Of a stretch of DNA of 20,000 nucleotides, positions 136 through 20,000 are shown piece by piece; position 1 is the first letter of the stretch; the number at the start of each line of letters is the position of its first letter. Made by a program: the position numbers and the translations under genes. The DNA is from Seison nebaliae. Its lineage: Eukaryota. The notes under the pieces are model-generated. The model saw nothing but the letters and a program-made list of their open reading frames with translations. It ran no database searches and was not told the origin of the DNA. The stretch is from contig JALJEE010000451.1 in the NCBI GenBank assembly GCA_023231475.1, positions 46,200 through 66,199 of the forward strand. The letters are read 5' to 3'.

Positions 136-3100
136 ATGAGTTCATCCAAGATGAAATTTCGTGATGTGGATGATGACAACGTGTCGGAGACGAATGAAGT
201 GAATGAAGACAATCCGTTTTATGAGAATACAGAGAAGACGCAAGCGCCATCACAAGACGACGCAGCTTATTTCGAATTTACAGATATACCCGTCGATATG
301 GGTAATCATTCGAGAAATGGTGGAATGTGTGGTCGAGAGAAAATGTTTGATTTGGAGAAGAAAGTTAATGACAAGATACAAGATCGAACGGATAGGAAAT
401 TTGAATGTGATATGGAATATGAGGAGACGAAGAAGAATAAGAATGTTGATCAAGAGAATAATCGATTCGGTTATGAGGAAAAGAAGAAGTTCCATGAAGA
501 GAGAGAAGAATGTGCATATTGTGGATATGATGATGATATGTGTATTGGGAAATGTCTATCATCAGGCAGATGGTTCTGTAATCGAATGAGTCGTAATGGA
601 AGTTGTAGTCATATCGTTTATCATTTAATACGAAGTGGATTCAAACGAGTACAATTACATCCTACCGGTCCATTAGCTGGTATTGAACTCCAATGTTATT
701 ATTGTGGAAATGACAATGTTTTCACTCTCGGTTACATTCCTGCGAAACGGGAAAGTTTCGTCATAATTCTTTGTCGGACCAATTGTCCCCAACAAGTGAT
801 CGAGGAAGCGGATTGGGATTCACATGAATGGGAACCGTTAATTAAGGAACGACGATTTCTTCCATGGATTTTGAAAGAATCGAAAAAATTGTCATCTGTC
901 AATAATGATAATTTGCCAATGATTACGAGAAATCAGATGGATAAAATGGAGCAGAAATGGCGATTGGAACGTGATATGCAAGAGACATCAGAATATGATG
1001 AAAAGAATATTCCTCAACTTGAACAATTGAGACATATGGAAGCGAAATATGCAAATATTGAAGAATATTGTAAAATCTTTCAAGCTTTATTGACAGTGGA
1101 AGCGGATGAAGATCGTCGTCGAAAGGAGAGTATGAAACAAACGAAAGTGAATGTTCGTTGGGAACGTGGTCTCAACAAGAAGTTGTATGTTTATTTCGAA
1201 TTATCTTTAGCGACAGATGACGTTCGATTGTTCGTTGGTGATGAAGTGAAATTAGTACGATCGATTCCCATAGAGAAAGATGAGAATGATAAATCGATTA
1301 GTCGATTAACTGCTGATTTGTCGACGTTAATTCCATTCTCTACTGATCGTACACGAATCGAAACGGAAGATGGTCGATCGAAATTTAATCATGGACATTT
1401 GACGAGTGGTGGAAAACAATCGTCGAAGAAACAAAAACAACATGGTGATCCGAATGAATTGACGGGATATATCACTCGAGTGCCAACGCCATTTTCGAAC
1501 GAATTTCAAGTTCAATTGAGTGGCGATAAATTGCAAACGGATATAGTAGATGTAGAATTAGTATGGAATAAAACACCATTTAAACGAATGCAAGAAGCAT
1601 TGAAAGAATTAGAAGGTATTATGAATAAACAATTGCCTACATCTACTACCAGTCTTCGAGCAGCTCTCCAACGTGGACATTTGATATTATTGAAGAAATT
1701 ATTGGGTCAAATTTCATTTACTCAACAAACTTCTTATTTGACGTCACTTCTCCAAAAACATAATAATGTTAAGAATAATAGTAAAGGAAATTATTCGATC
1801 AAAGGTCTCCCTCAATTAAATCCCTCACAAATCGCTGCTGTTAAAGATGCTTTGAATAATGATTGTACATTAATTCAGGGACCACCAGGAACTGGTAAAA
1901 CGTCAACATCATCAACGATTGTTTATCATCTCTTCCAAGAAACGAAACAACAATTACTCGTTTGTGCTTCATCTAATTGTGCAGTAGATCAATTAGCAGA
2001 TAAAATCTATTCAACTGGTCTGAAAGTTGTACGCGTTTATTCAAAAGCGAGAGAAGCTCTCCCAACTATCGATTGTCCATATGCTCTTCATATGAAAGTT
2101 AAATCGGAAACGAATAATGAGAAATTAGCGAAATTACAAAAGTTGAAAGATGAATTTGGTGAATTGACAGTAGATGACGAGAAGGAATATATCACGATGA
2201 GATTCGCAGCTGAATCGAGAATTTTAAGAGATGCAAATGTCATTTGTTGTACATGTATCGGAGCGTTCGATCCCAGATTAAGTGGTATGAATTTCCCCAT
2301 CGTTCTCATTGACGAATCGACGCAAGCTGGAGAAATTCAATGTATGATACCAATAACGAAAGGATGTGGCAAATTGATATTAGTAGGAGATTATTGTCAA
2401 TTAGGACCGATCGTCTTATCGACACATGCAGCTGCTGCTGGACTTAATTCTAGTTTATTCGAAAGATTATTAGTTTTGGGAGCGAAACCGATTCGATTAC
2501 AAGTTCAATATCGAATGCATCCTTTCCTCTCCAAATTCCCATCGAATACTTTCTATGAAGGTTCACTTCAGAACGGCGTAACGGAAAGCGAACGAACATT
2601 AGATGTATTAGCGAAAGGTTCCTTCACTTGGCCAGTTGAACATATTCCCACATTCTTTTATTGTTGTAATGGACAAGAAGAGATATCAGCGACGGGGAAA
2701 AGTTGTCTCAATCGAATGGAAGCGACATATGTGAGAAATATTGTCGTACGTTTATTACGATGTGGATTGAATCCGGAACAAATTGGTATAATGACACCAT
2801 ATGAAGGACAACGATCATTTTTATTCCAACATATTCATCATTCTGGAGAGATATCAGTAGAGCATTGTGGTGAATTAGAAATATCATCAGTTGATGCGTT
2901 TCAAGGTCGAGAAAAAGATTTCATCATTTTAAGTTGTGTACGATCGAATGTGAAGCAAGGTATCGGATTCTTGAAAGATCCACGACGACTTAATGTCGCT
3001 ATTACTCGTGCAAAGTTTTAAATATTTATTTTATTCTATAATTTAGAAATTATCTTTTCCTTCTAATTCTTATTATAGATATGGATTGATTATTATTGGA

Positions 3101-4247
3101 AATGCGAAATTGTTATCGGAAGATAATATTTGGAATCATCTTCTTCATTTTTATCAGAATGAGAATTTGTTAGTTGAAGGACCATTGAATCAATTGAAAA
3201 AATCGAAAATAATCCTACATCAATTGGCACCATTAAAGAATCCGATTAATCCTGTTTAATTTCTTTAATTTCTTTCTCATCTCATTATTATTATTTATTC
3301 CAATTCTTTTAAAGGGATATCATTTCGCTTTCAAAAACTTTAGTCGATCCAATGCTGATGGTGATGGAAATGGAAGAAATGGAAAGAATGACGAATCTAT
3401 CGCCAATTCACAAATGCTAATTATGATGATGATGAACGATCGACAACAACAACAACAACAACAACAAGAGAGTCAACAAGGAAATGATCAATCAAATATG
3501 TCGAATCAAGGAACATTTGCGAATGATCGAGATATTCCATTATCAATTCCCAAATTTCTACCTGGTCGTTATAGTCAATTTGGGAGTACATCAAATAATT
3601 ATGGATCAGATATGATAACACAATCATCAATGAATATGCAAATGCCGATGTCGAATTCGAATGTTCATTATCCACCATCACTCCAACAACCACCACCATC
3701 TCATTCCAATCATCAGGATAATTCATATGAAATGACACAGACGAATGGTGTAGATAAGAGGAATCCAGTCAATCAAATTTATTATGAGAATAAAGACTCT
3801 CGATGTGTGTCATCTGAAGAATTCAGTCAATCCAATAACAAGAACAATTACAACAACAGTGTTCGATATGTCCAAAACCGTAATCGCAATCAGCAACCAT
3901 CTCATCCGATTATGGAGAGATATCCTGTTCCATTCAATTTGTTCGTCCCTCCAACAATCGATCAGTCTCAAGTTCATTCGATGGGCGATAATCATTCGCA
4001 TCAACAATCGAACAATTTCACCGATCATCTCTCCTCTCAATCCCAAACTCAATTGACTCAATTTGGCAATGAGGAAGGTTCCCAAATGTTATACACTCAA
4101 CATCCCGGCCAATTATCTGATCAACGAAATTATCAATTCTCTCAACAGATGCCACAATCACAATTGACGACGGAGACTATGCACAGTCAATTGTCATTCC
4201 CTGATGGGAATTTCTCCCAATTTCCTGAAAATGATCGTCACTTATAA
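136..4247 (+). CDS. UPF1: Regulator of nonsense transcripts 1 (UPF1/RENT1) SF1 RNA helicase; exons 136-3014, 3079-3253, 3315-4247; ~1328 aa
   Basis: CH zinc domain (CAYCG...WFCN...SHIVYHL...CYYCG...LLCR-like IILCR), Walker A QGPPGTGKT, DESTQA, GDYCQLGP, LQVQYRMHP, SVDAFQGREKD, RRLNVAITRAK. Removing introns 3015-3078 and 3254-3314 (GT-AG) restores TRAK|YGLIIIGN...EGPLNQLK...NPINP|GYHF and joins the SQ/TQ-rich C-terminal ORF (3414-4247). Confidence 0.97.
3443..3467 (+). repeat. (CAA)n microsatellite encoding poly-Gln in the UPF1 C-terminal region
   Basis: About 8 CAA copies, read as RQQQQQQQQE. Confidence 0.9.
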
Positions 4248-5001: not shown

Positions 5002-5872
5002 TTATTCCATTTGATAGTGGGGAGTTTCCATTTCTCGTTGATACGAACCTTTTGTGACGACATATGAAACGATCAATCCAAAGAAGACGATACACATTCC
5101 ATAGATGTTGATGAGAACGCCTTCTCCCGACATTTCATTATATCTTTTTTAAATATGAGAATTAATCGAGAATAAATAGAATTGAGAAATTTGATTAGAA
5201 GAAACTTGATAGATGCAGAAATGAATGTCACTTTTTCCATAATTCCCAAGAGAGCGGAAAGACAAGATAAAATGAAAATTGCCACACCCCAAAATCTGTG
5301 TTTGGGCATTAATGCTGTGCGTAACGTGTCACTGAGTTTGGGAAAGAGAAATGCAACGAAGCCAGACATCCATTGCAAAGTGAAGAGAATTATTGTCGTC
5401 ATACCAATCCATGAATGGAGTGTGTACATATTGGGAATTGGTGGCTCTTTCAAATTGTGAGTGTCGAATACAGCCACCAATCCCACGATGGAGAAGATGA
5501 ATGCAGCCATATGCAATGTAGCATGTATTATTTTTATGTGTGTTTTCTTCATGTTTCGAAAGACACGAAACAACAATATCGCTAATAAAATACAATTGAT
5601 AATGAGAGAAATAATGATGATGATAAGAAAATCGAACAATTCCCATAGAAGAAGATGAGACCGATCGTCATGAATAAAGGATGATAATTAAATTCCCGAG
5701 TTAAATCAGAACGACCAGCTAAACCGCCTCGATATTTCCAAATCCAAAAACTTACGAGAACAATGGCGAGAGAACCGAACACTTCGGCAATCACCACCAG
5801 AATGGAGAAGATGTTCGCCATTCGCTTTCCATTATTAGCTGTGTCCATTAGATTCCGTTGACTATCGTACAT
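5002..5872 (-). CDS. Cytochrome b561 family transmembrane ascorbate-dependent reductase (CYBRD1/CYB561-like); exons 5872-5638, 5581-5206, 5143-5002; ~250 aa
   Basis: Four heme-ligand His (FNYHP, KIIHA, TLHSW, KHRFWG), SILLFRVFR and TLHSW substrate motifs, and multiple TM helices. Introns 5637-5582 and 5205-5144 (GT-AG) restore the frame to ...GEGVLINIYG...YQME*. Start is ATG 5872 or 5848. Confidence 0.93.
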
Positions 5873-6356
5873 CGAACGAGAGAATCCTGAGAAAAGTTCC
5901 ACGTAGCACACTTATCTTCTCTGCTTATACAAATGGTTTGTCGATCTTTTGTTATGTTAGATAAAATTATCGGATAAAAATTATTTTAAATAAAATTCAA
6001 AGGAAATTACGTAGAGCAACCTCCACTTGATCTGGTGTAAAATGAATTAAATTGATCATTTTCCAATACAAAGCTTGATATAAAATTTTATATTTATATT
6101 TTATTTTATTTATTTAACATTTATTTATTTAACATAAATTTATATAATAACAATTTTTATTCATTATAATTAAATGTTCTTGATCAATTATTAAAAATAT
6201 TCGTAAAAATATTTGGAGATCCAACAAACAATTCCTCTATCAATAACAAAATTTTCATATCTCTTCAATTTTTAGCTTTGACGTCAAATCATTTCAATTT
6301 CCCCATTTTCAAAACAATAACATCAATCAACAATTGTCAATCTTAAAGATATGATA

Positions 6357-7692
6357 TCATGATAAAATCTTTGAGATTTGATGAGTTTTATCTGTCGATC
6401 GAAATTCATTGTAATCGCCAAATAGCTTAATAGCTAAACTGTAACTACTCTTGTCCCATCCACCATTATGCGTACCGTTGACAATGCGGACTAAGCACGA
6501 TCGATTTTGATTGGAACAACGAACGATGTCATATAATTGTTCCATCATCGACGGTGGTACCTGAAATGAATGGAGAAGAATGAAGAGATGAAATGAAAGA
6601 AATGTGAACTAATTCATCCATTTCACCCGAGAGAAATAGAATTGGAATATTCTTACTGATCATTTTGAGTTTTCCTTCTGAATTGAATTTGGAAGCGACG
6701 AGAAAATTTGGCAATTTGTTGACCCAATTTGCACCAGCGATCTCTCTTCCCATTTTTGGTATGGAAAGGAATGTGTTATCGATAATGACTCCCGCCAAAT
6801 CATTTTGTCGTCGATACATGAGATCGATGGCGACTGCTCCACCTAAACTTCGTCCAAATAAAATAATTGGCAATTTGGGAAAATTGTTTTTGACGAAATC
6901 GAGAACATATAATGAATCTTTCTCCAAATATTTCTCATTAGGGAAGGAGGACGATAATCCAAATCCACGATATTCTACCAACAGAATGTGACAATTGAAA
7001 ATGTTCTGGAATTTGGGTATTTCATATTGACGATCGAAAACAGAACCGGCATTCCCATGGAAATGGATGATGAAAATCTCCTTCAACTTTTTATTGGTGA
7101 GAGAATTGGGCGGGAAATAAAGTGAATGGATTTTATTATCATCGAATGATTTAATATGAATGGATTTAGTGAAGAGATTAGATTGAGATTGTTGATGGAG
7201 TGCTGAATAGGTTGATGTTTTCCTTATTGGAGTATTGAGAGAGAATAGATCGTGAATATCCAATAATTGATGTCGTCGCAAATAGGCGGAATAAAGTAAA
7301 TTTGGATAGAAGAGAAACGAATCCTCCAACTTGTACAAAATGTTGAGGAGACAAATGGAGAAGATGAGAAGAAGTAATAAGAAGAATATAAAATTGTATA
7401 TGATCGAATAAATGGTAAGAAGAGGTAGAAGAATAAGAAATGAATTCCGACACATCTCCTTCTTGTCACCAAATGATTTTTGATAAATGAATTGAATAGT
7501 TTGAAAGAAATCGAACGATGAATTATTTTTCTTCAAATTCATGATGTCTTTATCCATCTGTGATATCCAACTGTCATCCAAAATGACATTCTCTTCACAA
7601 TCACTCTCTCCCGACACATAACCAAATGATTCGTCGACCGACTCATTCTCCAGACGGATAAATGGAGTGTTCTTCATTTCCCCATCAAACAT
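6357..7692 (-). CDS. ABHD13: ABHD13-like alpha/beta hydrolase; exons 7692-6610, 6560-6357; ~428 aa
   Basis: TM helix then LFYP, HFHGNAG, VEYRGFG, nucleophile GRSLGG, IIDNTFLSI. Intron 6609-6561 restores DEL|VPPSMMEQLY...GTHNGGW (catalytic Asp and His). First in-frame ATG is at 7692; the ORF-track extension to 7884 is non-ATG. Confidence 0.88.
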
Positions 7693-7963
7693 CTGTCCAA
7701 TGGGAAATGCAGGTGATGAAAAAGAAAAAAAGTTTTTGAAAAAAAAAATAATTGGATATGTCAAAGGTGAAATGGATTGAGGAGGGGCAAAAGAGTGAAC
7801 AAGCTTCAAAATTGAAGATGACACTCTCTTAATCCATTCAACACATGGAGGAAGTGGATTGAAGAAAATAATAAAGTTTCCCAAAATTCTTCCGAAACAA
7901 TCTTCATTTATATTTTACGAAAATTCAAAATTTAACCTTACGATCTGGTGTGGACGAATATCC
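7693..7963. promoter_or_regulatory. Probable bidirectional promoter between the head-to-head ABHD13-like and DDB1 genes
   Basis: Divergent ATGs at 7692 (-) and 7964 (+) are only 271 bp apart. Inferred from geometry only. Confidence 0.6.
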
Positions 7964-10900
7964 ATGATGCGATCGACGAAAACTCCCTTCTACGCTTATG
8001 TAGCTGAAGTGGAGAAGGGCGATGCTATTGTTGATTGTGTAGTGGGCAATTTTGGATGTAAACACAAACAAATACTAATTATGGGAAGGAATCAATCACT
8101 CGATATTTATGAGATGAATGACGAAGAATTAGTTCGATTAAAATCCTTCAAACTTTATGGGGAAATTAATCGATTGAGCAAATTCGAAGTGGGACAACGT
8201 GATTATCTCGTCATATTATTCTGCAATTTCAAAGCGATCATACTCACTTTCTTTGATGATAATGATGATAATCGAATGACAGCTCAAACTTTAGCTAGTG
8301 TTGATCTGATGATGGTGAATGGTCGTGAAACTGGTAATGGAAATTTAATAGAAGTTGATCCGAGAAATCGAATGATCGCTCTCCATCAATTTGATGGTAT
8401 TCTAACATACATTCCAATTCATATCGATCAACCAATTAATCCTGAAAAAAATCGTCATTGTTATTGGAAAGTTCTTCATACTCTCATCAATTCGATGGAT
8501 TTGGTTGATATGAAATTCCTTCATGGTTATGAAGAGAGTACTCTCGCTATTATTCGTCGAGTGAAAGGTAATCGATTAACATATTCTCGAATTCAAATAG
8601 ATATAAATCGATCGGAAATATTATTATGTGAACCATCGGAATATTTCCTTCTCGATTGGTACGAATTAAAGAAAGAACGTCCACATATCATGATTTCGAT
8701 AAAGGGACCGATGTATGGCGTTTTCATCGTCGACCGTACAGGAATCACATATTTGAATGATAATTTATATATGAATGATTATCATATTCTTCCAATCATT
8801 CAACGATTAGCAGATTTGAAAGAGAGGAAGAAATTTGAAATTGACATGAAACGATTATTGAGGAAATTCAATCGACAAATCTTTTCAACAAATCTTTTGA
8901 AGAATAACGAAATTTTATGTTACGTTGAATTGAAAGTGACAGAATATTTATTGTTGAGTAATAATGGAAGTATGTATCGATTATCGATGGATTGTATGGA
9001 AGTATGTCAAGGAATTTTCCGTCCAACAAATATGAAATTGAAATTCGTTCGAGATACAACCCTCCCACAAACTATGTCTTTATTGAATGATCATTTCCTC
9101 TTTATTAGTAGTCGTTTAGCAAATCATGAATTATATCATATTGATGATAATGGTCAATTGAGATTGATGAAGACATTCAATAGTAATGGACCTTTGGCTG
9201 ATGTTTGTCTCATTAAATCTGATAATTATTCAAGTGATTCATTGATTATGGCATGCAATGCTCATCGACATGGTTGTGTGAAAGTGATGAGGAAGATGGT
9301 AAGAACGGAGAAAATGGAGAAGATTACATTGGAATCAGAATTGATGGGAATTGATCAAATTTCAAATATGTTCCCAATCAGAATAAAATCTTCTTTAAAA
9401 TTATTCGTGAATTATAAGGAACGATCAAAATTGATAAAAGTGAAAGGTGATGACTCTTTCTTCCACAATTCCTCCATTATCGATAAAATTGAAAATAAAT
9501 GTTGTGTTCATGTTCAACAATTGAAATTTGATGAAGATTTCTGGTTGATTGTTCAATCGAATCATCTTCTTTTTATCAAGAATGATAAAATAATATTTGA
9601 GAGAAATTATGAGGATGATGTGGATATAACGGTAGTGAGTTGTCGAATGAACGAGAGATGTGTGATATCTATTGCTTTCGCTTCAACAAATAAATTATTT
9701 CATATAAAATTCCAGTTGGTCAATGAAGAATTGACGATTGAGAAGGAGGAGAAGGTTTGGGAATTTGACTATTTCATTTCGTGTATCGATCTTTCTTCAT
9801 TATCATTCAATCTGTTAGCATTGGGATTATGGGAGAAGGATGTGATGAAAATTATTGATTTAACAGATGATCAAATAATGAATTATGATGAATTTGATGA
9901 ATTTCGTGTACGTTCTGTCAAATTCTTATCGATCGTCGATCGTTACGAATTGTTATTCGTTGCCCTTTTTAATGGAATGTTAAAATATTTTCAAAAGATG
10001 GACAATTCTCATATTTATGAGTTGATCGGTCAAGTGTCCATTTATGGTAAATTGTCGGTCATTCGTAGAATTATTTATTTGAATGACAAACCTGCTGAAG
10101 ATTATTCCTATAAAATGGATCATCGATTGTTTGAAGATAATGTGAATGTTCGAGAGGTAATGGCGAGACAGAGGAGAGGAAAGAAAATTGAAATCCTTCA
10201 TTTGGATACGGGAGAAGGAATGCTTATTTTCCCTGAAAGAAATGACATGAATTATCGATTAATTTTCGCTGATTTATCATCACATTCTTCCTCCATTTGT
10301 CGATCATTCGATTTCGTCAAGAATCATCTCTCCTTCCTTCAAGAAACGAGAAATCGTAAATTGAACAAATGGATCAGTGACGATTATTTAATCTCTCAAC
10401 AAGGCGATATTGAATTGATGGAAATGGAATTGGTGGAGAAATATCATGTTTTACGTCTGCCTTTTGGAGAGACGACCAATAAACTCATTTGTCAAAAGAG
10501 GAATGGTATAATTGGCGTTACAACTTTCCGGACAGATATCACATCTCATATCGTCAAATTTGATAAAGAAAAATTTAAAACGATTCCCTTCGTCGATGAG
10601 AGACGACGATCAAAAAATCATTGTTTCGTACGAACTATTCCTGTTCCGCTTATGAGAGAAGAGAAAGTAGAAGATTATCCAGTCAGTATTCGATTGTTAT
10701 ATGATAATACGGATCGAACGAAAACATATGTTGTCGCTTATTCTCATTATACACAAATTCGTGAATATATTAATGATTTGGTGGAAGTGGAAGGAAGTGA
10801 TGATATATTAAATGATTTATCATCTATTCTTTATGCAACTAAATCGACGAAGAAAGAAGCGACAAATTTCCATTTTCGATTCCATGACATCTTCCAAGGT

Positions 10901-13262
10901 AATATGACATTTCGTGGACGAATTAAAGAATTAAGAACGGACAATTCTAATAAAGTCGATCGAATGTTCATTGCAGGTACACCAATCGAAGTACATAATG
11001 TGACGATAATGGATCGATTTAGTTATCGTCCTTTATTCACTATGCAATTTGATGTAACAGAATGTATTCATTCTCTTATTACTGGACGATTGATAATCGA
11101 TGCTCATTCAGATGACGAGACCGGTGATCATGTAAATACCTCGTCATTCAAACATGAGATTGATGAAGATCTCTATTTTACGGAGAAAGATGAAAACATT
11201 TGGATGGATGAACGAAATGGAGGGAAAAAATGGTCAGATGAATATTTTTTCGTTGGAACATCATTCGCTTCATTGTTTGAGGATGAAGTGAAAATTGGAA
11301 GAATTGTCATATTGAAATGGGAGAATAGTTTCTTTTTCATTTATTCTCTCTTCTTCTTTCATTCTCTCTTTCTTATCAAGACGAATTGATCATGTTTCGA
11401 GAAAAATTAACAAATGGTGCTGTTCATTCATTGAATATTGTGAATGGATGTTTAGTAGCGACAGTGAACGCTTCTGTTATTATTAATATTATTATTTTCA
11501 TTATTTATTTGAAATTTTTATTTATTTTTAATTATTTTTTTATGATGACAGACGAGAATGTTCAAATTGTCAGGAAAAGAATTGAAATTAGAATGTATTA
11601 AAGGAACGTCAAATGTCAATGTGTTGGCAGTGAGAAGTAAAACAGCATCCGTTATAAATGAGAACGATATCAAAGAGATTAAGGAGATCTCTTGCACAGA
11701 ACTCGTCCATCGATCCTTCATCAATAATTCAGATAGAAATTATTTCTTCTCACCTCAAACGGAAGGTAAAGCATTGGTGTTAGTTGGAGATTTGTGTCAA
11801 ACCGTTTCACTTTATGCTTTTAATGCGAAAAAAATGTGTCTCCAATTCGTTCGTCATTTCCTTTATTTCTATCTATCTATATTTATTTCTTTCATCATCA
11901 GTTGGCACATGATCGATATCCCAGTTGGTGTAACGATATGGATTTTCTAGATTTTTCTAGAGGAATCGGATGGAAAGATGATGATGATGATCTAACATCA
12001 TTCATCTCAATTTTAGCAGCAGATGGTAGTGGTAATCTCATTCTTTATTTATATGAACGAGCTGAACGACCAGAAAAACAATTAGATCTCAAATCATTAA
12101 ACATCGACTTCTCCACTGGTCTACCAAATCAACATCGACAATCATGGGATGATCAACTTCCTGAATCGACACTCTCAGCTGAAGTATCCGCCATCATCAA
12201 AGCGAATCATGAACCTGACGAATTTCTGAATGATCCGTTAACTGGTGGATTCTCTCGTTCCACCATCGCCAAATCAACATTACATCGAATTGGACATTTT
12301 CATTTGGGAGAGAATGTCAATCAGATAAGAAGGACTCGATTATGTTCAAATTATTATTCGTTCGTCAAAGAATGGGAAGATAATAATGAACCGATTATTG
12401 AATTTGATATAGATAATAATTTGAAAAATTTTTTCGGGAAAATTTCAGTAAAGAAAGATCCAGGTATTAAATCTCTTCCTACTATGTGTGAGGCAGCATT
12501 TGAAGATCGTCCAATTGCAGAAGAGATGAGTCATAAAGGCAAATTGAGAAATCCATTAAATGTCAATAGTGAATCATTATTGTTAATGAGTGTATCGGGA
12601 GCACTTCATGCTGTTTATTCGATTTCTTACGAAATTTATCAAATTTTGAAGAGAATTGAAACGATAATGACTGCCGGAATCTACACCGAATTACTTCATG
12701 CCAAAATGGAAAATAAAATTATTCCGCTGAACATTTTCAAAGAGATTCAGTCGACTATTAGTCGGACACATCACATCGTATTTCGCTCATTTCACACAGA
12801 ACGAGAATTTATCATGTCAGAAACGTTCATTGATGGAAGTATCGTAGAAAAATTCATTTTATTACCATTCGACGTGCAGAAATATCTCCTCAAATATAAT
12901 AATATTATGAAAGATGTGAGGAGAGCGTCGACGGGGAAGATGATGAAGAAAAATGCACAACAAATCAAAGAATTGATGGAAAAAGAGGAAGTGACAGGAA
13001 ATACGAAAGATTTAATAAGAGAAGAATTCGTTGAAATTGAAACGAAAAATGAGAATTTCTGGCGTGATCAAAAGAAGAGAGCGAACGAATCGATGGAAGA
13101 GAATGTTGTGAAAAAGACGAAGAGTTTCAAAGTGAAAATTTTTCATAAGCAAATCAATAATATCATCTACAATTTTATTTATTCACATTAGACCGTTTGA
13201 TGGTGGTAGTAGTATTGTTAATATTGAGAGAAGAATTTATTAATAAACTTTCTCCCAACTAG
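7964..13262 (+). CDS. DDB1: DNA damage-binding protein 1 (DDB1), divergent and expanded; exons 7964-11327, 11381-11475, 11552-11848, 11902-13123, 13192-13262; ~1682 aa
   Basis: Recognisable DDB1 segments in order: YVAEVEKGDAIVDCVVGNF, GRETGNGNLIEVDP, DMKFLHG, SNGPLADV, EVHNVTIMD, YFFVGTS..EDEVKIGRIVIL, GAVHSL...LVATVNAS|TRMF, LVGDL, AHDRYPSW, IGHFHLGENVN, FRSFHTER, FIDGSIVEKF. The last intron donor is uncertain (13124 GTT preferred; 13132 GTG would end the CDS at 13200). Confidence 0.9.
13236..13247. terminator. Palindromic bidirectional polyadenylation signal TTTATTAATAAA
   Basis: Perfect 12-bp palindrome giving AATAAA on both strands, located at the junction of two convergent genes. Confidence 0.5.
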
Positions 13263-13284: not shown

Positions 13285-14166
13285 TTATTTTCCTTTCTGT
13301 TCCATTAGACGATTTCTCATATTTGCATAGAATTCTGGTGGTAATGATGGTTTTCGACTTTTCACCCAATTCTCATGTAAATCGACTGCACGTCCTCTCG
13401 GATGTGAGACGATTCGATATCCGGTAACTGTTTCCGTTCGCTTATTATCATTCCGATGATGTCCCGTTTTCATTTTCCTTCGATAAATATTTTTATCTTC
13501 CATAATCGATGAGGAATTATTCGGATAATATTGATGTTGTTGATAATTGGTTATGGATGAAGGAGGAGGTACATTCTGTTGATAGTTTGGATAAGAATTA
13601 TTCGATTGAAATTGTTGTTGATTATATTGTGGTTGATGAGAATGATTGTTTACCGTTTGTTGATGGTTCGAATGATATTGATGATTCTTATTATATAATG
13701 GTTGTTGATAATTGGGGAGAGTGGGAAGATTATTGTTGAGATCATAGGAATAATGATCTGGTTTTTCATAAGTTCTTTTGGGAAGTAATGATGGATGAGA
13801 TAAAGTGAGAGGATATGAATTATCCAAATCGCCCGAGATATCATAATAAGTAGTTTGGGAGGACATGTTGGAGAAATCGACAGGAATATGTCGCGTATAC
13901 GTCATGGAACGATTAGCAGATAATGGTGATGAATATCGGAAATTTGAAGATGATGACGATAACGAAGAAGTTGACGAAGACAACTTATTTCTCCGTTTCG
14001 ATGTTCCATAATAATCGTTCATTGGCAAATTATCTTTTCGACCTATATCATAAGCAACCGTATCATAAATGGTGGAGGTGTTATCTGATAAAATTGAATA
14101 GTTCTCATCTGAATTATAGTTGGATGATTTCGCTGTAGAATAAATATAAGTTCTGCTTCGACTCAT
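13285..14166 (-). CDS. Hypothetical intronless ~293-aa protein, Ser/Asn/Gln/Tyr-rich low complexity
   Basis: 882-nt ATG-initiated open frame in AT-rich DNA (MSRSRTYIYS...RLMEQKGK*). No family recognised. Confidence 0.75.
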   Translation of the reverse strand: MSRSRTYIYSTAKSSNYNSDENYSILSDNTSTIYDTVAYDIGRKDNLPMNDYYGTSKRRNKLSSSTSSLSSSSSNFRYSSPLSANRSMTYTRHIPVDFSNMSSQTTYYDISGDLDNSYPLTLSHPSLLPKRTYEKPDHYSYDLNNNLPTLPNYQQPLYNKNHQYHSNHQQTVNNHSHQPQYNQQQFQSNNSYPNYQQNVPPPSSITNYQQHQYYPNNSSSIMEDKNIYRRKMKTGHHRNDNKRTETVTGYRIVSHPRGRAVDLHENWVKSRKPSLPPEFYANMRNRLMEQKGK

Positions 14167-14584
14167 TTCCCTTTCGATTCTCTTCAATAATTTTATTCTT
14201 TTGTCAATTTCCTTCTCATTCCACTTCGATCACAATCACCTATTAATCAATTACATCGTTACTATGACATTCCTATTCCATTGTTATATTTCACTTTCTA
14301 TCATCATCATATCATCATCCAACCTTCTCATTATTGTCATATAATGGCATTATTCTTCTAAATTTTTGCTTGCAATTCAACCTAATAATTATTATGAACA
14401 TATCTCATAAAACTCTAATTTCTAATCCTTTTACCCCGAATTATAATTCAACTTCAATTAACCTCTGTTAACAAACATTAACATCAGGAAACGGTTTCAA
14501 TTTGAGAGAGAGAGTTATTGAAAATAAACGAAAGAAATTTGAAATTTATTCAAACAAAATGCGAAATTAATTTCCAATTGTCTG

Positions 14585-17500
14585 TTACTCACTCTCTGCC
14601 GCCTGCTCTACTCCAGCAGTTACTTTGATATAATCCGTCAGTACTTTTTCTGCACTCATTGAAGGATATTGGCCAACCGTAGATGGTGGAACTTCGTCGT
14701 TATGGGCGAAAGATACTATATTTTGAAATCTCGAACATCTTGGTGATTCCAATTGATCATTCCTAATAAATTTCAACAGTTGTGCTCGAAGTCCCATTTC
14801 AAGATCCTTGTTTTGTGCATCAGAAGTGTCCGCTACCACATCAGTCCAAGCTACTGCCGAATCACCAATCTGGGCTGCTTTCGCTATGTCCAATGCATAA
14901 TCATAGTTGTCTGACATGAACTTTAAACGCATATCAACAAGTTTAAGCACAGTCCCCAAATCAGTAAAACGGCAATCACTCTTCAAACCATTGTAATTTT
15001 TTGTATAGACGAAAATATTACTTTCCTCCAATTTCGTATATTCCGTTTGTAATGCTTTTCCTTTACCACCCGGTTTCATTGCTGTATTGAATTTTGTCAG
15101 ATCGAAACCGTTGTCAGTACCGTCATCTTTGAGAACAGCTAGATATTTATAGCCAGTTGGCTCCACAAATTTTGTATCAAACTCCGCTTTGGCAACTGTT
15201 TCCTGAACCAATATCTCATTACATGTGGACAGTTTATCAGGGAAATAATGAGGTAAGATTTTCCCAAGGATATCTACATCAAACCGAATATGATTAATGA
15301 ACGATCAATGATAATTTCAATGATAATACCGACTTCTATATTTGACAAACATATCGACGCTTTTGAATAAATTATCCGCAGCGAGTTCACTTTTCACCAC
15401 TGTGTTTTTTAAAAATTGATTCGAAACAAATGTTTTACTTAGTATTCTCTCATTAATATTATTCTAACTATTTTTTAATATGTCATGTTTCTTATATGGT
15501 TGAACTTCTTCGAACGCTTTCTTGATTGCTGCCGTATCTGATAAGTCGCTTGGTAACGTCAAATGTTCTAGTGATTTATCTATTTTATCATATATTAGAA
15601 TTAGTGTAGAAATTTCAGAATGTTAACGATCTTCTTGAATATCTTTCGTTATCAGTTTTACCATTCCCAATTGTAGTTCTAACTCTAAAAGACCACCAAT
15701 TATCTTTCAATCAAAGTGAAAAGAGAAACCTTTAGCCAGACTCAATTCCAGCAGTGCCAATTCCTCTTTCGACATATGTCCAACTAAAATAATTTTTTAT
15801 TTATCACTCACAATCAAAATGATTAACCGACAATCTCTTCAATCTTCAAATTATCAGTAATCAATGAATTCTGCAGAGCTAAAAACATAATAAATTTCAA
15901 TTTTTTCATCCTTCCCACCATCAACTAACTAGATAATAAAATATCGATACTCTTTTGTTCCTCTGTCATACTCATCTTCAGGTTAGTTATCGTGTAAATC
16001 AGTTTCGCTAATTCCGCCATTTTATTCTTCAATTCTATCCTCTTCTCATTGTAGGCTGATTAAGAAATGTATTATTCGAATTAGTTATTTGATGAGACAA
16101 ACTGCTAGTGTCCGCCATAAATTCAGTTAATAATTTTTTCACGAATGATTTCAATGTTTCGATTGATTGATCTAACGTACGTATTAATGTCGTGACACAA
16201 TGATCATTTGAAAAGTAACCTGCTGTATAAATACTCTTGCTACTCGTCAAATGTATATCGTTCAATTTCTCCATTTCTTTCATATCACAATTACTTTTTA
16301 CACAAATTCTCAGAAGGATAAACCTCGTTCAATTGCCACTAATTGTTTCTGAGAGATTTCATTCGATTGTCTCAACGAAGAAAGTTCAGATTCTAAACGA
16401 AGAATTCACATAAAAAAACCAATTTTGGAATGTTAACGGAGTAATACTAATTCATCTTTCAACGATTGTTTCTTGCCAATTTGATTATAGAAAACTAAAG
16501 GAAACGTCCAGTGAAGATAACTAAATAATATGATGCTAACCAGTTTCCAGCGATTGTTGTTCTCGTTTCAAACGTGCTAGAATTGATCGTTTTTCCGTGA
16601 TCTTGTCGTCTATATCCATCTCCACCATTATACAGGGCAAAAACAATCAAAAAATAACCAAGAAGTGAAATATTTTTCATCGAAGCCGCTCTCGTTGTAA
16701 ATTTGGAGACTTCGTTATAAATTGCGATTGTACTTTCCGTGTCATCAATTTTATGGTTAAGTAATCGAACATCTCGTTCTTAAGAAGAGATTTCTATGAA
16801 GGATTTTCCCCACATGAAATTGAGAAAAAAACTTAAAAATTTCTCTTGTTCTAAAATGTCATCCAAATCTGTTTAAATTTTGAAAATAATAATCATGAAT
16901 CATGATGAACCATAAGAGAAATGGTTAACATGATTGTAGTGGCATATTGTTTGTCAAAACTTCATTGAGTATATGCTCCAACACACGACTTCCTTTTCAC
17001 ACACATTTATTATTGAATTCATACATCATAAATGATTCGTTAACTTAATTTTGATTTTTTGAATAACGATTCTCTTTCTTCAAATTTATTTTTTGCCGAA
17101 TTGATTCTTCCGTCTATCTCATCGACTTTATTATGAATCTTTTTCAATTCTTTCTCCTTTTCTACGTATCCTTCGAAAGACACAATCATTTCAACATCTA
17201 CACACATTTCTTTCTAACCTTTCTCTAAAGTGTCTAATTTCAATTTATTCTCCAATAATTTCGACTCTGTTATTGCTTGTTGCTGATCTATATTTGAAAA
17301 AATGAAAACTCTCTCTAAACTGAACGATTGAACACAAACCAAGAATTCGATATTCTCCTTTTTGTTTTGTTAATTTCTCACCTAAATATCAATTTTAGAG
17401 AGGAGACAAATCCACCCACTTTTCCCATTAATCGAACTAACTCATATATCGAATATCTTCCGTTTCCTTTATGTCATTACTCTTTCGATTTTCTACCACT

Positions 17501-18168
17501 AATTTTCAGGAATATTCACTTAATTTCAAAATGGGGAATATGATTAACTATCTCCCAAACGAGTCAGATAACGCTGTTGATCTAACAATTGTCTAAAGAT
17601 GGGAACTGAATTTTTTCTTAGAATTATCATTGATATTAAAATGAAAACCGTTGCCTTCCAACCCACTAAGTTTGGATTGCCAAAATTCGAATTCTTTTTT
17701 AAAGAGTAAATTAAAAGGTATAAAAATGCGGAATAAACCCAATCGTTTTTCTCCCAAAGTTCTTATCAAATTTTTTTCCTTCATTTCTGTTCGGCAACAA
17801 ATGAAAATAATCTATGAATTAGGAAATGTAACTCTCAAACTCCTTGGCCTTTATTGGAGAGAATTCAATTCTTTCAAATTCATTCCCCTTCGACCACTCA
17901 ACTTTATCTTCCTTGTATGGTGAGATGAAGGAAGGAGTTATGATTTTTTCATCATTATTATTCTCCCCATAATTATAATTATAGTCATAACCATATGTAT
18001 CATAAGAATAGCCTATTTGGATTATTATAGAAAGAAAAACTGAGAAATATTTTAAATGAACTGGATGCAGACGACTGTTCCACTAGAACTACATTAACAA
18101 TAAATGATGGAATAAAATCATTAGAAAAATTAACATAAGACAACACTGCACAAGTAAATAATAATCAT
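14585..18168 (-). CDS. Secreted coiled-coil micro-exon protein, 25 exons, ~792 aa, unknown family
   Basis: Exons (5'->3'): 18168-18135, 18088-18062, 18012-17833, 17786-17739, 17693-17649, 17605-17549, 17498-17442, 17381-17340, 17287-17219, 17170-17045, 16992-16930, 16868-16833, 16778-16659, 16609-16541, 16494-16438, 16392-16324, 16276-16220, 16171-16103, 16055-15930, 15878-15828, 15783-15730, 15684-15628, 15579-15469, 15399-15334, 15273-14585. The spliced frame (2379 nt) is stop-free, begins with signal-peptide-like MIIIYLCSVVLFLVEQSSA and is E/K/L-rich and heptad-like. Every intron is a 43-69 nt GT-AG. Confidence 0.85.
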
Positions 18169-18929
18169 AATTCAATAGTTTTCCGAGAGAGATTCCTTGG
18201 ATGGTCGGTCTTATCATTAAATATAAATAGTACTTACAGAATCCAAAGAAAACATTTGACACATGATTCCTAAAACTTACTTGCTGTCCATTCAATTTCA
18301 TTTATAGAAAGTACCACTTCAATAACAATAACCGTTTAAGGTTTCAACATTTTACCTTCTTCATCGAATATTATGTATCGTTTAATTTATGTTAATATAA
18401 GAGATTTGTCCGAAATCCATACTAACCATCGATTAATTAACCGTTGGAAATAATTATTGAAAAATTTCTTTTTTATATCCATCACATTGGATTGTTTCGA
18501 TTCGAAATTAACTATAGTGACCTACAACTAATAATGGTACAATCTTATCTGGAAAATATCTGGCGGAAAATTTTAGAACTAGAACAAAAGTGGAAAATTC
18601 GGCAATTTTAAAGCACGCAAAAAAGTAAACTGATTTAACGGTCAGCATATAGGAATAGCAATCAAATAAACTGCATCATTCATATTTATGAATTAGTGGT
18701 TCAATATTCAATGTGTTCTTCATTTATTAAATACAGTACTTATTTATGGAAATAGATAGTAGAGAAACTAACAATATGTAATTGTAAGACGATAGCAATA
18801 TCTTAATATCGCCAATTATCGGAACTACAGAAAGCGTGTACAAATTTAAGCTGTGAGCACCTTTTTTGCTCGATGTGTAATAGTCTTACCACAAAATAAT
18901 AGAATTGTGATTTTGGACAATAGAAAAAA

Positions 18930-19533
18930 GTCTTCGAAATTGACTGATTACATTAGATGCAAATTTTTGCGGAAGTTCTATTCTTTCTTTCTTCGTTGCA
19001 AATTCTTTCCTATTTCGCTGAAAGTTCGATTGTTTATAACTTATGGCTGTGATTTCTATGGTCTCGCTGCCTCATTATCGTCAACTCATAAGTCATTACG
19101 ATCACTCGATCGAACATACAACAGAACAATACGAATGTTACTCGGTTTTGGTAAACCTTTCAACAGAGCCTTCATGTTCTCTATCTCGGAGCTGAAGCCC
19201 TTAACACTTCTTCTCGCGGTTTGGTACGTTAAATTACTAGAATCTGTAACTTCTTCCGATTTTCCGATTCCATATTTTAATCAATGTGAGATATTCTCTT
19301 CTCCTATCAACTTCTTTTCGCTTTATTATTCATTAACGGTACCTACTTCTCTGGAGGCCGCCCGCTCTATGATCAACAACAATACCTAATATCGATTCCT
19401 TCATTCCTGACTCTTTACGTACTCACGTGGAGCAGGGTAAATCACTTATTTCCAATAACTCATCTGATGAGTTATCTCGTTTCCTTTATAATTTACCCCA
19501 CGGGGATTTGTTGTATTAATAAAAAAAAAAAAA
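18930..19533 (+). mobile_element. 5'-truncated non-LTR retrotransposon (LINE): ORF2 C-terminus, 3' UTR and poly(A) tail
   Basis: ORF segment RKFYSFFLRCKFFPISLKVRLFITYGCDFYG...LDRTYNRTIRMLLG...AFMF resembles the post-RT region of LINE ORF2 proteins (recognised from memory, clade not assigned). Stop at 19389, AATAAA at 19518 running into A13 (19521-19533). No RT core upstream; the 5' boundary is approximate. Confidence 0.75.
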
Positions 19534-19728
19534 CTATTGCTGTAGATCATCATCAAACGGTCATAGATCTGAATAATTGAATTTGCATAAGTAATAGATA
19601 TAGAATAAAAGAAATCATCAATAATACAAGTTGATTTTTAATGTATAAGTGACGTTTCTTTCATTTTCTTTTTCTCCATAAAAGTTTATTATGGAACATC
19701 ATTTTTTAGATTCTTCAAAATGGCCAAC

Positions 19729-19900
19729 TATTCACCTCTAACCACTTATTGACCACATACCTCTTACTGACCGTGTATCACATATTCACCACTAACCACT
19801 TATTGACCACATACCACTTACTGACCGTGTATCACATATTCACCACAAACCACATATTCACCACTAACCACTTATTGACCACATACCACTGATTGACCAC
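19729..19900. repeat. Minisatellite: ~9.5 copies of an 18-bp unit with a 54-bp higher-order repeat
   Basis: Units A tattcaccactaaccact, B tattgaccacataccact and C tactgaccgtgtatcaca in the order A B C A B C A' A B, then a partial unit. Confidence 0.92.
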
Positions 19901-20000
19901 CAGAATTAAAAGGACCAACCACCAATCGTTCATACTTATTGATTATTATTTTCACTTCCACTGTTAGCTCTCCGGGCTACATATGTCGATAAGCTCTAAA

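What the first reader, a model, noticed from the sequence alone, without database searches (positions are those of the whole stretch)
14585..18168. Hidden 25-exon micro-exon gene with 24/24 phase-1 introns encoding a secreted coiled-coil protein
Seen: the ORF fragments here join into one stop-free 792-aa frame using 24 short GT-AG introns, and every intron falls after the first base of a codon. All 23 internal exons are 3n (27,180,48,45,57,57,42,69,126,63,36,120,69,57,69,57,69,126,51,54,57,111,66 nt). The neighbouring housekeeping genes have only 1-4 introns each with mixed phases (2,0; 1,2; 0; 1,0,0,1), so this pattern is gene-specific. Known: symmetric micro-exon arrays in secreted proteins define the Schistosoma MEG genes, where exon skipping generates variants, although MEG exons are usually shorter; phase-1 symmetric exons also mark exon-shuffled extracellular proteins. 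Inference: any subset of internal exons could be skipped without frameshift or NMD, giving a combinatorial, length-tunable secreted rod. It is a candidate undescribed variable secreted, adhesive or host-interface protein family.
Basis: partly seen in the sequence, partly recalled or inferred. Interest (0 to 1): 0.88.

Follow-up and report, generated by a model that had tools for sequence, protein, structure and literature searches.

The report
Rotifer rod gene, all phase-1 introns
A tiny rotifer that lives on marine crustaceans carries a 25-exon gene in which all 24 predicted introns cut a codon at the same point; it encodes a predicted secreted coiled-coil rod with no relatives found, its tidy layout likely records repeated copying of small exons, and mix-and-match splicing remains untested.

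Summary
The gene model holds. On the minus strand (18168-14585), 25 exons give a 792-aa protein identical to NCBI's hypothetical SNEBB_003806 of Seison nebaliae, so it is not hidden. All 24 introns (43-69 nt) are phase 1. A chain of 23 symmetric exons exists only in phase 1 (best of 200 shuffles: 7). A second genomic copy of the 5' part differs in introns 1-2 but not in exons 1-2, which supports those boundaries.

It is not a Schistosoma-type micro-exon gene: 3 of 25 exons are <=36 nt (4% of the coding sequence). No RNA run was available, so splicing and skipping are untested; tiny introns argue against frequent skipping.

Intron spacing follows the heptad (23+19 = 42 residues), and two same-length exon pairs keep faint similarity. 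The best reading is a lineage-specific secreted coiled-coil rod built by old tandem duplication of symmetric phase-1 exon units and mostly spliced one way. No homologue or fold was found. The scan noted similar same-phase small-exon arrays before on other DNA (fungi, a diatom), mostly with mucin-like stalks; a heptad-registered helical one was not among those returned. Interest 0.42.

The parts
14585..18168 (-). Whole gene, 25 exons, 792 aa (= NCBI SNEBB_003806). Exons 5'->3': 18168-18135, 18088-18062, 18012-17833, 17786-17739, 17693-17649, 17605-17549, 17498-17442, 17381-17340, 17287-17219, 17170-17045, 16992-16930, 16868-16833, 16778-16659, 16609-16541, 16494-16438, 16392-16324, 16276-16220, 16171-16103, 16055-15930, 15878-15828, 15783-15730, 15684-15628, 15579-15469, 15399-15334, 15273-14585
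18062..18168 (-). Exons 1-2: predicted signal peptide (residues 1 to about 19); intron 2 falls at codon 21, just after the inferred cleavage site
   Evidence: hydropathy peak at residues 1-14, none later; both exons unchanged in the second copy while introns 1-2 differ; cleavage site is inference
17833..18012 (-). Exon 3: Tyr/Asn-rich then charged N-terminal segment (residues 21-81)
   Evidence: 8 replacement and 3 silent differences in the second copy
15628..17381 (-). Exons 8-22: predicted coiled-coil rod (about residues 150-505); exons 14-19 are 69,57,69,57,69,126 nt, placing introns every 23/19/42 residues
   Evidence: 3.5-residue hydrophobic period; intron spacing and heptad-class tests; long helices in a low-confidence model
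14585..15273 (-). Exon 25: intron-free C-terminal region (residues 565-792, three Cys), no known family
17614..18551 (-). Stretch (upstream region, exons 1-5, most of intron 5) with a second, roughly 90-95% similar copy in DNA runs; that copy continues with unlike sequence inside intron 5
   Evidence: (tables 3, 4, 7, 8)

Best explanation
This is a 25-exon rotifer gene whose 24 predicted introns are all phase 1; it likely encodes a secreted coiled-coil rod with a compact C-terminal end, was likely built by old tandem duplication of small symmetric exon units, and is likely spliced mostly one way. Inferred steps: (1) a phase-1 intron beside the signal peptide seeded the phase; (2) only exon units with phase 1 at both ends could be duplicated without breaking the frame, and units of whole heptads (23+19 = 42 residues) also kept the coiled-coil register, so these survived; (3) the copies then diverged almost beyond recognition; (4) the product would act as an extracellular structural or adhesive rod (surface coat, attachment secretion, or egg or sperm-packet coat), which is a guess from architecture and lifestyle only.
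For: Shown: model identical to the NCBI protein; 23-exon phase-1 chain against at most 7 in 200 shuffles; second copy has 0 of 99 exonic and 13 of 95 intronic substitutions over 17975-18168, P=6e-5, plus a 13-nt deletion in intron 4 and an acceptor that reads as moved by 6 nt, which keeps phase 1. Duplication traces: six intron pairs 42 residues apart (P=0.016 for any distance 25-70); 8 of 15 rod introns in one of 7 heptad classes (P=0.003); 7 of 14 adjacent exon pairs sum to whole heptads; exons 10/19 are 43% and exons 7/22 53% identical in DNA against 30% background (P=0.0024 and 0.0008 among 17 same-length pairs). Literature (passages): phase-1 introns are enriched near signal-peptide cleavage sites and class 1-1 units dominate animal extracellular proteins (PMC8001218; PMC7259759); skipping goes with short exons between long introns (PMC6142364).
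Against: The duplication signal is faint and the 42-residue period was spotted by eye before testing. Shuffling the order of the real exon lengths reaches six pairs in 7.7% of trials. The protein shows no self-similarity at offset 42 (z<2). The four 69-nt exons are no more alike in DNA than background, and their peptides only slightly (P=0.02 over 24 residues, 0.06 over 42). Same-length exon pairs as a group are not more alike than others (P=0.19). Introns show no significant mutual similarity outside the donor consensus (P=0.47 and 0.98). The signal peptide lacks a basic N-region and was judged by hydropathy only. Structure models are unusable (pLDDT 39 and 31). How NCBI's model was made was not found, so its agreement may not rest on transcripts.
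Confidence: 0.6

Rival explanations
1. MEG-like variation by splicing: internal exons, singly or as 23+19-residue pairs, are skipped to give a ladder of rod lengths at the host interface.
For: All 23 internal exons are 3n and phase 1-1; 7 of 14 adjacent rod exon pairs and 4 of 15 single exons keep the heptad register; frame-preserving skipping is enriched in bilaterians (PMC8001218); alternative splicing is reported for Seison lamins (PMC10125929).
Against: Introns of 43-69 nt are the opposite of the short-exon/long-intron layout linked to skipping, though that paper names exceptions (PMC6142364); 11 of 15 rod exons would shift the register if skipped alone; exons are mostly far above MEG size. 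Symmetry is explained without skipping.
Confidence: 0.15
2. Exon shuffling between genes: the promoter, signal peptide and exons 1-5 form a header shared with another gene, and phase-1 uniformity lets downstream exon blocks be swapped at the DNA level. This is compatible with the best explanation.
For: A second copy of 17614-18551 occurs in runs of both listed studies with the same differences in exon 3 and upstream. One contig aligns for 183 nt and then continues for 36 nt unlike intron 5/exon 6 (tables 7-8). If the printed loose end abuts the joint, it reads as an AG acceptor followed either by a 9-nt phase-1 exon and a GTT donor or by a frame that stops after five codons (inference).
Against: Only short contig pieces were seen; the copy may be a truncated duplicate, a diverged haplotype, or the second lineage described for this species (PMC8351084). 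No annotated protein sharing the N-terminus was found at 30-434 or 435-1386 aa.
Confidence: 0.15
3. Introns were gained into a pre-existing coiled-coil gene and phase 1 was kept by selection, because this organism's GTTAA/GTTAG donor puts a stop codon in frame in phase 1, so a retained intron is stopped at once.
For: 12 of 24 donors carry an in-frame stop at intron positions 3-5, against 0 of 8 neighbour donors with that motif (P=0.014); 9 of 11 3n introns hold an in-frame stop. Density is 14 introns per kb over exons 1-24.
Against: It does not explain the 42-residue spacing or the similar exon pairs; neighbours use mixed phases; junction codons are varied with no shared insertion site; introns are not copies of one element. 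Shared donors are also expected from common descent.
Confidence: 0.07
4. The model is partly an artefact of threading GT-AG pairs through AT-rich DNA.
For: No RNA junction was seen; 9 of 24 introns have a non-phase-1 alternative; introns 4 and 17 are 3n and stop-free if retained.
Against: Shuffle test, identity with the NCBI protein, intron-confined changes in the second copy.
Confidence: 0.03

Closest known systems
Schistosoma micro-exon genes (MEGs), as described in reviews PMC4015677 and PMC8293314 (passages read; DeMarco 2010 itself not read)
   Same: Lineage-restricted, signal peptide, runs of symmetric exons, host-associated animal
   Different: MEGs are mainly exons of 36 nt or less (up to 75% of coding sequence), encode small proteins and have sequenced skipped isoforms. 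Here such exons are 4% of the coding sequence, the product is 792 aa with a heptad rod, and skipping is untested. No homology.
Class 1-1 exon-shuffled extracellular proteins of animals (PMC8001218, passages)
   Same: Secreted, phase-1 intron beside the signal peptide, symmetric 1-1 exons
   Different: Known class 1-1 modules are folded, mainly beta domains; here exons are 9-42-residue pieces of a predicted continuous helix with no Pfam match.
Same-phase small-exon stalks in secreted proteins noted earlier by this scan in fungi, a diatom and protists (e1-7701183, e1-7616474, e1-9997532; AI notes, unchecked)
   Same: Uniform intron phase, small symmetric exons, signal peptide, read as exon duplication, no evidence for skipping
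   Different: Those stalks are Thr-rich, Cys-repeat or cadherin-like with visible repeats; this one is a helical rod with almost erased repeats in an animal.
Secreted coiled-coil rods with a C-terminal head such as fibrinogen-related proteins, EMILIN/multimerin and matrilin (recalled, from no call)
   Same: Signal peptide, long heptad region, terminal compact region
   Different: No sequence or fold match; analogy of layout only.

Membership tests
Schistosoma-type micro-exon gene (MEG) | Coding sequence mainly from exons of 36 nt or less | tested here: not met
   3 of 25 exons, 4.1% of 2379 nt; median internal exon 57 nt
Schistosoma-type micro-exon gene (MEG) | Symmetric (3n) internal exons | tested here: met
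   23 of 23
Schistosoma-type micro-exon gene (MEG) | Signal peptide | tested here: inconclusive
   Hydrophobic residues 1-14, no later membrane segment; SignalP not available
Schistosoma-type micro-exon gene (MEG) | Transcripts with skipped exons | not testable with these tools
   Only DNA-like contigs could be laid
Schistosoma-type micro-exon gene (MEG) | Small protein | tested here: not met
   792 aa, about 89 kDa after the signal peptide
Schistosoma-type micro-exon gene (MEG) | Raised dN/dS | tested here: inconclusive
   Exon 3 versus the second copy: 8 replacement on 146 sites, 3 silent on 31 sites, ratio about 0.6; too few changes
Class 1-1 exon-shuffled modular protein | Units flanked by phase-1 introns | tested here: met
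   24 of 24
Class 1-1 exon-shuffled modular protein | Exon borders match known mobile folded domains | tested here: not met
   No Pfam family passes (only ATG16 at E 0.39); internal exons encode 9-60 residues
Class 1-1 exon-shuffled modular protein | The same unit occurs in another gene | tested here: inconclusive
   Second copy of exons 1-5 with unlike continuation, locus not assembled
Gene grown by tandem exon duplication | Recurring exon lengths in one phase | tested here: met
   57 nt x5, 69 nt x4, 126 nt x2; 57+69 = 126
Gene grown by tandem exon duplication | Residual similarity between copies | tested here: inconclusive
   2 of 17 same-length pairs above background, group test P=0.19; introns not similar
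Introner-type recent intron invasion | Introns are near-identical copies at a shared target site | tested here: not met
   No significant intron similarity; varied junction codons

The most novel reading that the evidence does not exclude
Seison has a family of secreted coiled-coil rods in which phase-1 exon cassettes registered to the heptad (23+19 = 42 residues) are exchanged behind a shared signal-peptide header or skipped in pairs, tuning rod length without breaking frame or register: a MEG-like variation system of independent origin in the sister group of the parasitic thorny-headed worms.
Probability: 0.15. Interest if true: 0.75.

Novelty: new variant of a known kind. Interest (0 to 1): 0.42.

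Why it matters
Same-phase symmetric exon arrays are known in secreted animal proteins, but as folded beta modules or as tiny exons of small disordered proteins. An orphan helical rod cut into 23 phase-1 exons whose spacing tracks the heptad is an unusual case of exon structure shaped by both reading frame and coiled-coil register, in a genome whose neighbouring genes run about 1000 codons without an intron. It gives a cheap test (existing Seison mRNA reads) of whether such symmetry is a fossil of duplication or is used for variation, and a candidate surface or attachment protein in a lineage informative for the origin of acanthocephalan parasitism. If it is spliced one way, it is a curious orphan gene and no more.

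Tried and rejected
No RNA holder listed; the five holders behave as DNA contigs and show no spliced joints, which says nothing on expression. No whole genome is held, so genome-wide phase use and paralogues could not be scanned. No counterpart of exons 6-25 appeared among the listed pieces at 80% likeness, but that table was cut (33 pieces not shown) and lack of cover proves nothing.

Protein searches found only the protein itself, nothing for residues 1-140 among short proteins, and nothing in metagenome contigs; long proteins (>1386 aa) were not searched with the N-terminus. The phmmer hits to abalone VERL (E 8e-23) and an unnamed fibronectin-III repeat protein were rejected: they sum weak scores over 19 and 5 repeats, and each single match is about 28 bits. 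PDB sequence search gave only FliS at E 0.03. Both Atlas searches gave no usable hit. Single-sequence models had pLDDT 39 and 31 and Foldseek found nothing at E<=0.001; VIA-align was not run on such models.

An eye-catching 16-of-18 match at the exon 15 and exon 22 donors and intron-pair z-scores did not survive a column-preserving control and are not counted. No Rfam match in 14000-20000. Paper searches found no description of this gene or of this layout: 'SNEBB' (unrelated hits), Seison + microexon, all introns + phase 1 + exon duplication + heptad, intron phase + symmetric exons + coiled coil + tandem exon duplication (0 with 3 of 4 terms); two searches returned nothing relevant. The library lacks most subscription journals, and supplements of PMC8351084 were not opened; they may hold transcript mappings.

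Full report
Observation. The finding lies on the minus strand from 18168 to 14585. The 792-aa solution is identical to P0001, which NCBI names hypothetical protein SNEBB_003806 of Seison nebaliae, KAI3388594.1. The gene is therefore annotated, not hidden. I could not find how that annotation was made, so its agreement is a second prediction, not proof from transcripts. Seison is a strictly sexual rotifer living on Nebalia crustaceans, with a genome of about 46 Mb, compact genes and two described lineages (PMC8351084: abstract, passages, sections 3, 6, 9).

Is it more than chance? All 24 introns are phase 1 and 43-69 nt, with donors GTT (23) or GTC (1). At a phase-1 share of 0.25-0.40 the chance of 24 of 24 is 4e-15 to 3e-10; the usual 0:1:2 ratio is about 5:3:2 (PMC7259759, passages). 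To guard against biased threading I measured the longest chain of symmetric exons with such introns: 23 in phase 1, 2 in phase 0, 3 in phase 2, 2 on the other strand, and 2-7 in 200 Markov shuffles. Among 50 alternative frame-keeping splice pairs, 37 are phase 1; 15 of 24 introns have no other-phase option and 9 do. UPF1 and the DDB1-like gene (Pfam) run 959 and 1120 codons without an intron, against 14 introns per kb over exons 1-24 here.

Comparative support. No RNA run holds the stretch, so junctions and skipping are untested. DNA contigs show a second copy of 17614-18551, with the same differences in runs of both listed studies where both cover it. Over 17975-18168 it has 0 substitutions in 99 exonic bases and 13 in 95 intronic bases (P=6e-5), with indels only in introns and upstream. 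Intron 4 has a 13-nt deletion, and its acceptor reads as lost and regained 6 nt further on, which keeps phase 1 (inference from the listed changes at 17694 and 17689; 7 of that contig's 13 differences were shown). Exon 3 has 8 replacement and 3 silent changes and no stop. One contig continues for 36 nt unlike intron 5/exon 6. Whether this is a paralogue, a truncated duplicate, a haplotype or the other lineage cannot be told from these pieces.

The protein. Residues 1-14 are the only strongly hydrophobic stretch; a cleavage near residue 19 is my inference, and intron 2 falls at codon 21. Hydrophobic residues recur every 3.5 positions in 140-300 and most clearly in 290-440, and self-similarity peaks at offsets 14, 21, 35, 49 and 63 but not 42. 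Exon 25 encodes 228 residues with three Cys. No homologue, family or fold was found; the VERL and fibronectin-III hits are repeat-summing artefacts. Structure models are too poor to use.

Why all phase 1? Exon lengths recur (57 nt five times, 69 four times, 126 twice, and 57+69 = 126 nt = six heptads). Six intron pairs lie 42 residues apart (P=0.016 for any distance, 0.002 for heptad multiples, but 0.077 when the real lengths are only reordered). Eight of 15 rod introns fall in one heptad class (P=0.003), and 7 of 14 adjacent exon pairs but only 4 of 15 single exons are whole heptads. Exons 10/19 and 7/22 are 43% and 53% identical against 30% background (2 of 17 same-length pairs). Against this, the period was seen before it was tested, the 69-nt exons are at background in DNA, the group test is not significant (P=0.19) and introns are not similar. 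I read this as old tandem duplication of symmetric units under a double filter of reading frame and heptad register, seeded by a phase-1 intron beside the signal peptide, where such introns are known to be enriched (PMC8001218, passages). This explains the symmetry without any skipping (confidence 0.6). The function as an extracellular structural or adhesive rod is inferred from layout and lifestyle only.

Rivals. Splicing-based variation (0.15) is allowed by the frame but disfavoured by 43-69-nt introns (PMC6142364, passages, which also names exceptions) and by register shifts for 11 of 15 single exons; paired skipping stays open. DNA-level shuffling behind a shared header (0.15) rests on the second copy. 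Intron gain with selection for a built-in stop (0.07) rests on 12 of 24 donors placing a stop in frame at positions 3-5 versus 0 of 8 neighbours (P=0.014). A threading artefact (0.03) is nearly excluded.

Comparison and novelty. It fails the MEG size criterion: MEGs are mainly exons of 36 nt or less and encode small proteins with sequenced skipped forms (PMC8293314 and PMC4015677, passages), whereas here such exons are 3 of 25 and 4% of the coding sequence. It shares the phase of class 1-1 modular proteins but not their folded, mainly beta modules. The scan's notes list similar same-phase arrays in fungi, a diatom and other eukaryotes (unchecked); look-ups by place, by sequence and for a heptad-registered animal case returned nothing. 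Paper searches found no description of this gene or layout. Verdict: a real, annotated but undescribed orphan gene; a new variant of a known kind; interest 0.42, rising to about 0.75 if paired skipping or header shuffling is shown (probability about 0.15).

Noticed in passing
window 136-4247 (+): UPF1 RNA helicase (Pfam PF09416, PF13086, PF13087) with two candidate introns near its 3' end and a long Gln/Asn/Ser-rich tail.
   Followed up: partly
window 7967-13190 (+): DDB1/RSE1/CPSF1-type beta-propeller gene (PF10433), very long and diverged, with 1120 intron-free codons followed by three candidate introns.
   Followed up: partly
window 5073-5911 and 6357-7914 (-): Two spliced genes that look like a cytochrome b561 and an alpha/beta-hydrolase (labels recalled from motifs, from no call).
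   Followed up: no
window 13288-14163 (-): 292-codon Ser/Tyr/Asn/Gln-rich frame directly downstream of the finding, with no Pfam match.
   Followed up: no
window 15885-15936: A 52-nt stretch covering most of intron 19 has a close copy (at least 90%) on another contig with unrelated flanks in all five runs laid; unexplained, possibly a short dispersed repeat.
   Followed up: no
donors of introns 1,6,7,9,10,11,14,15,19,20,22,23: GTTAA/GTTAG donors put a stop codon in frame at intron positions 3-5 in phase 1 (12 of 24; 0 of 8 neighbour donors). Worth a genome-wide test.
   Followed up: partly
window 18850-19389 (+): 179-codon stop-to-stop frame upstream of the gene; part of it recalls the tail of non-LTR retrotransposon proteins (recalled, untested).
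   Followed up: no
window 19729-19900: Tandem repeat with 54-nt period, 2.8 copies at 91%, and an 18-nt sub-period.
   Followed up: no
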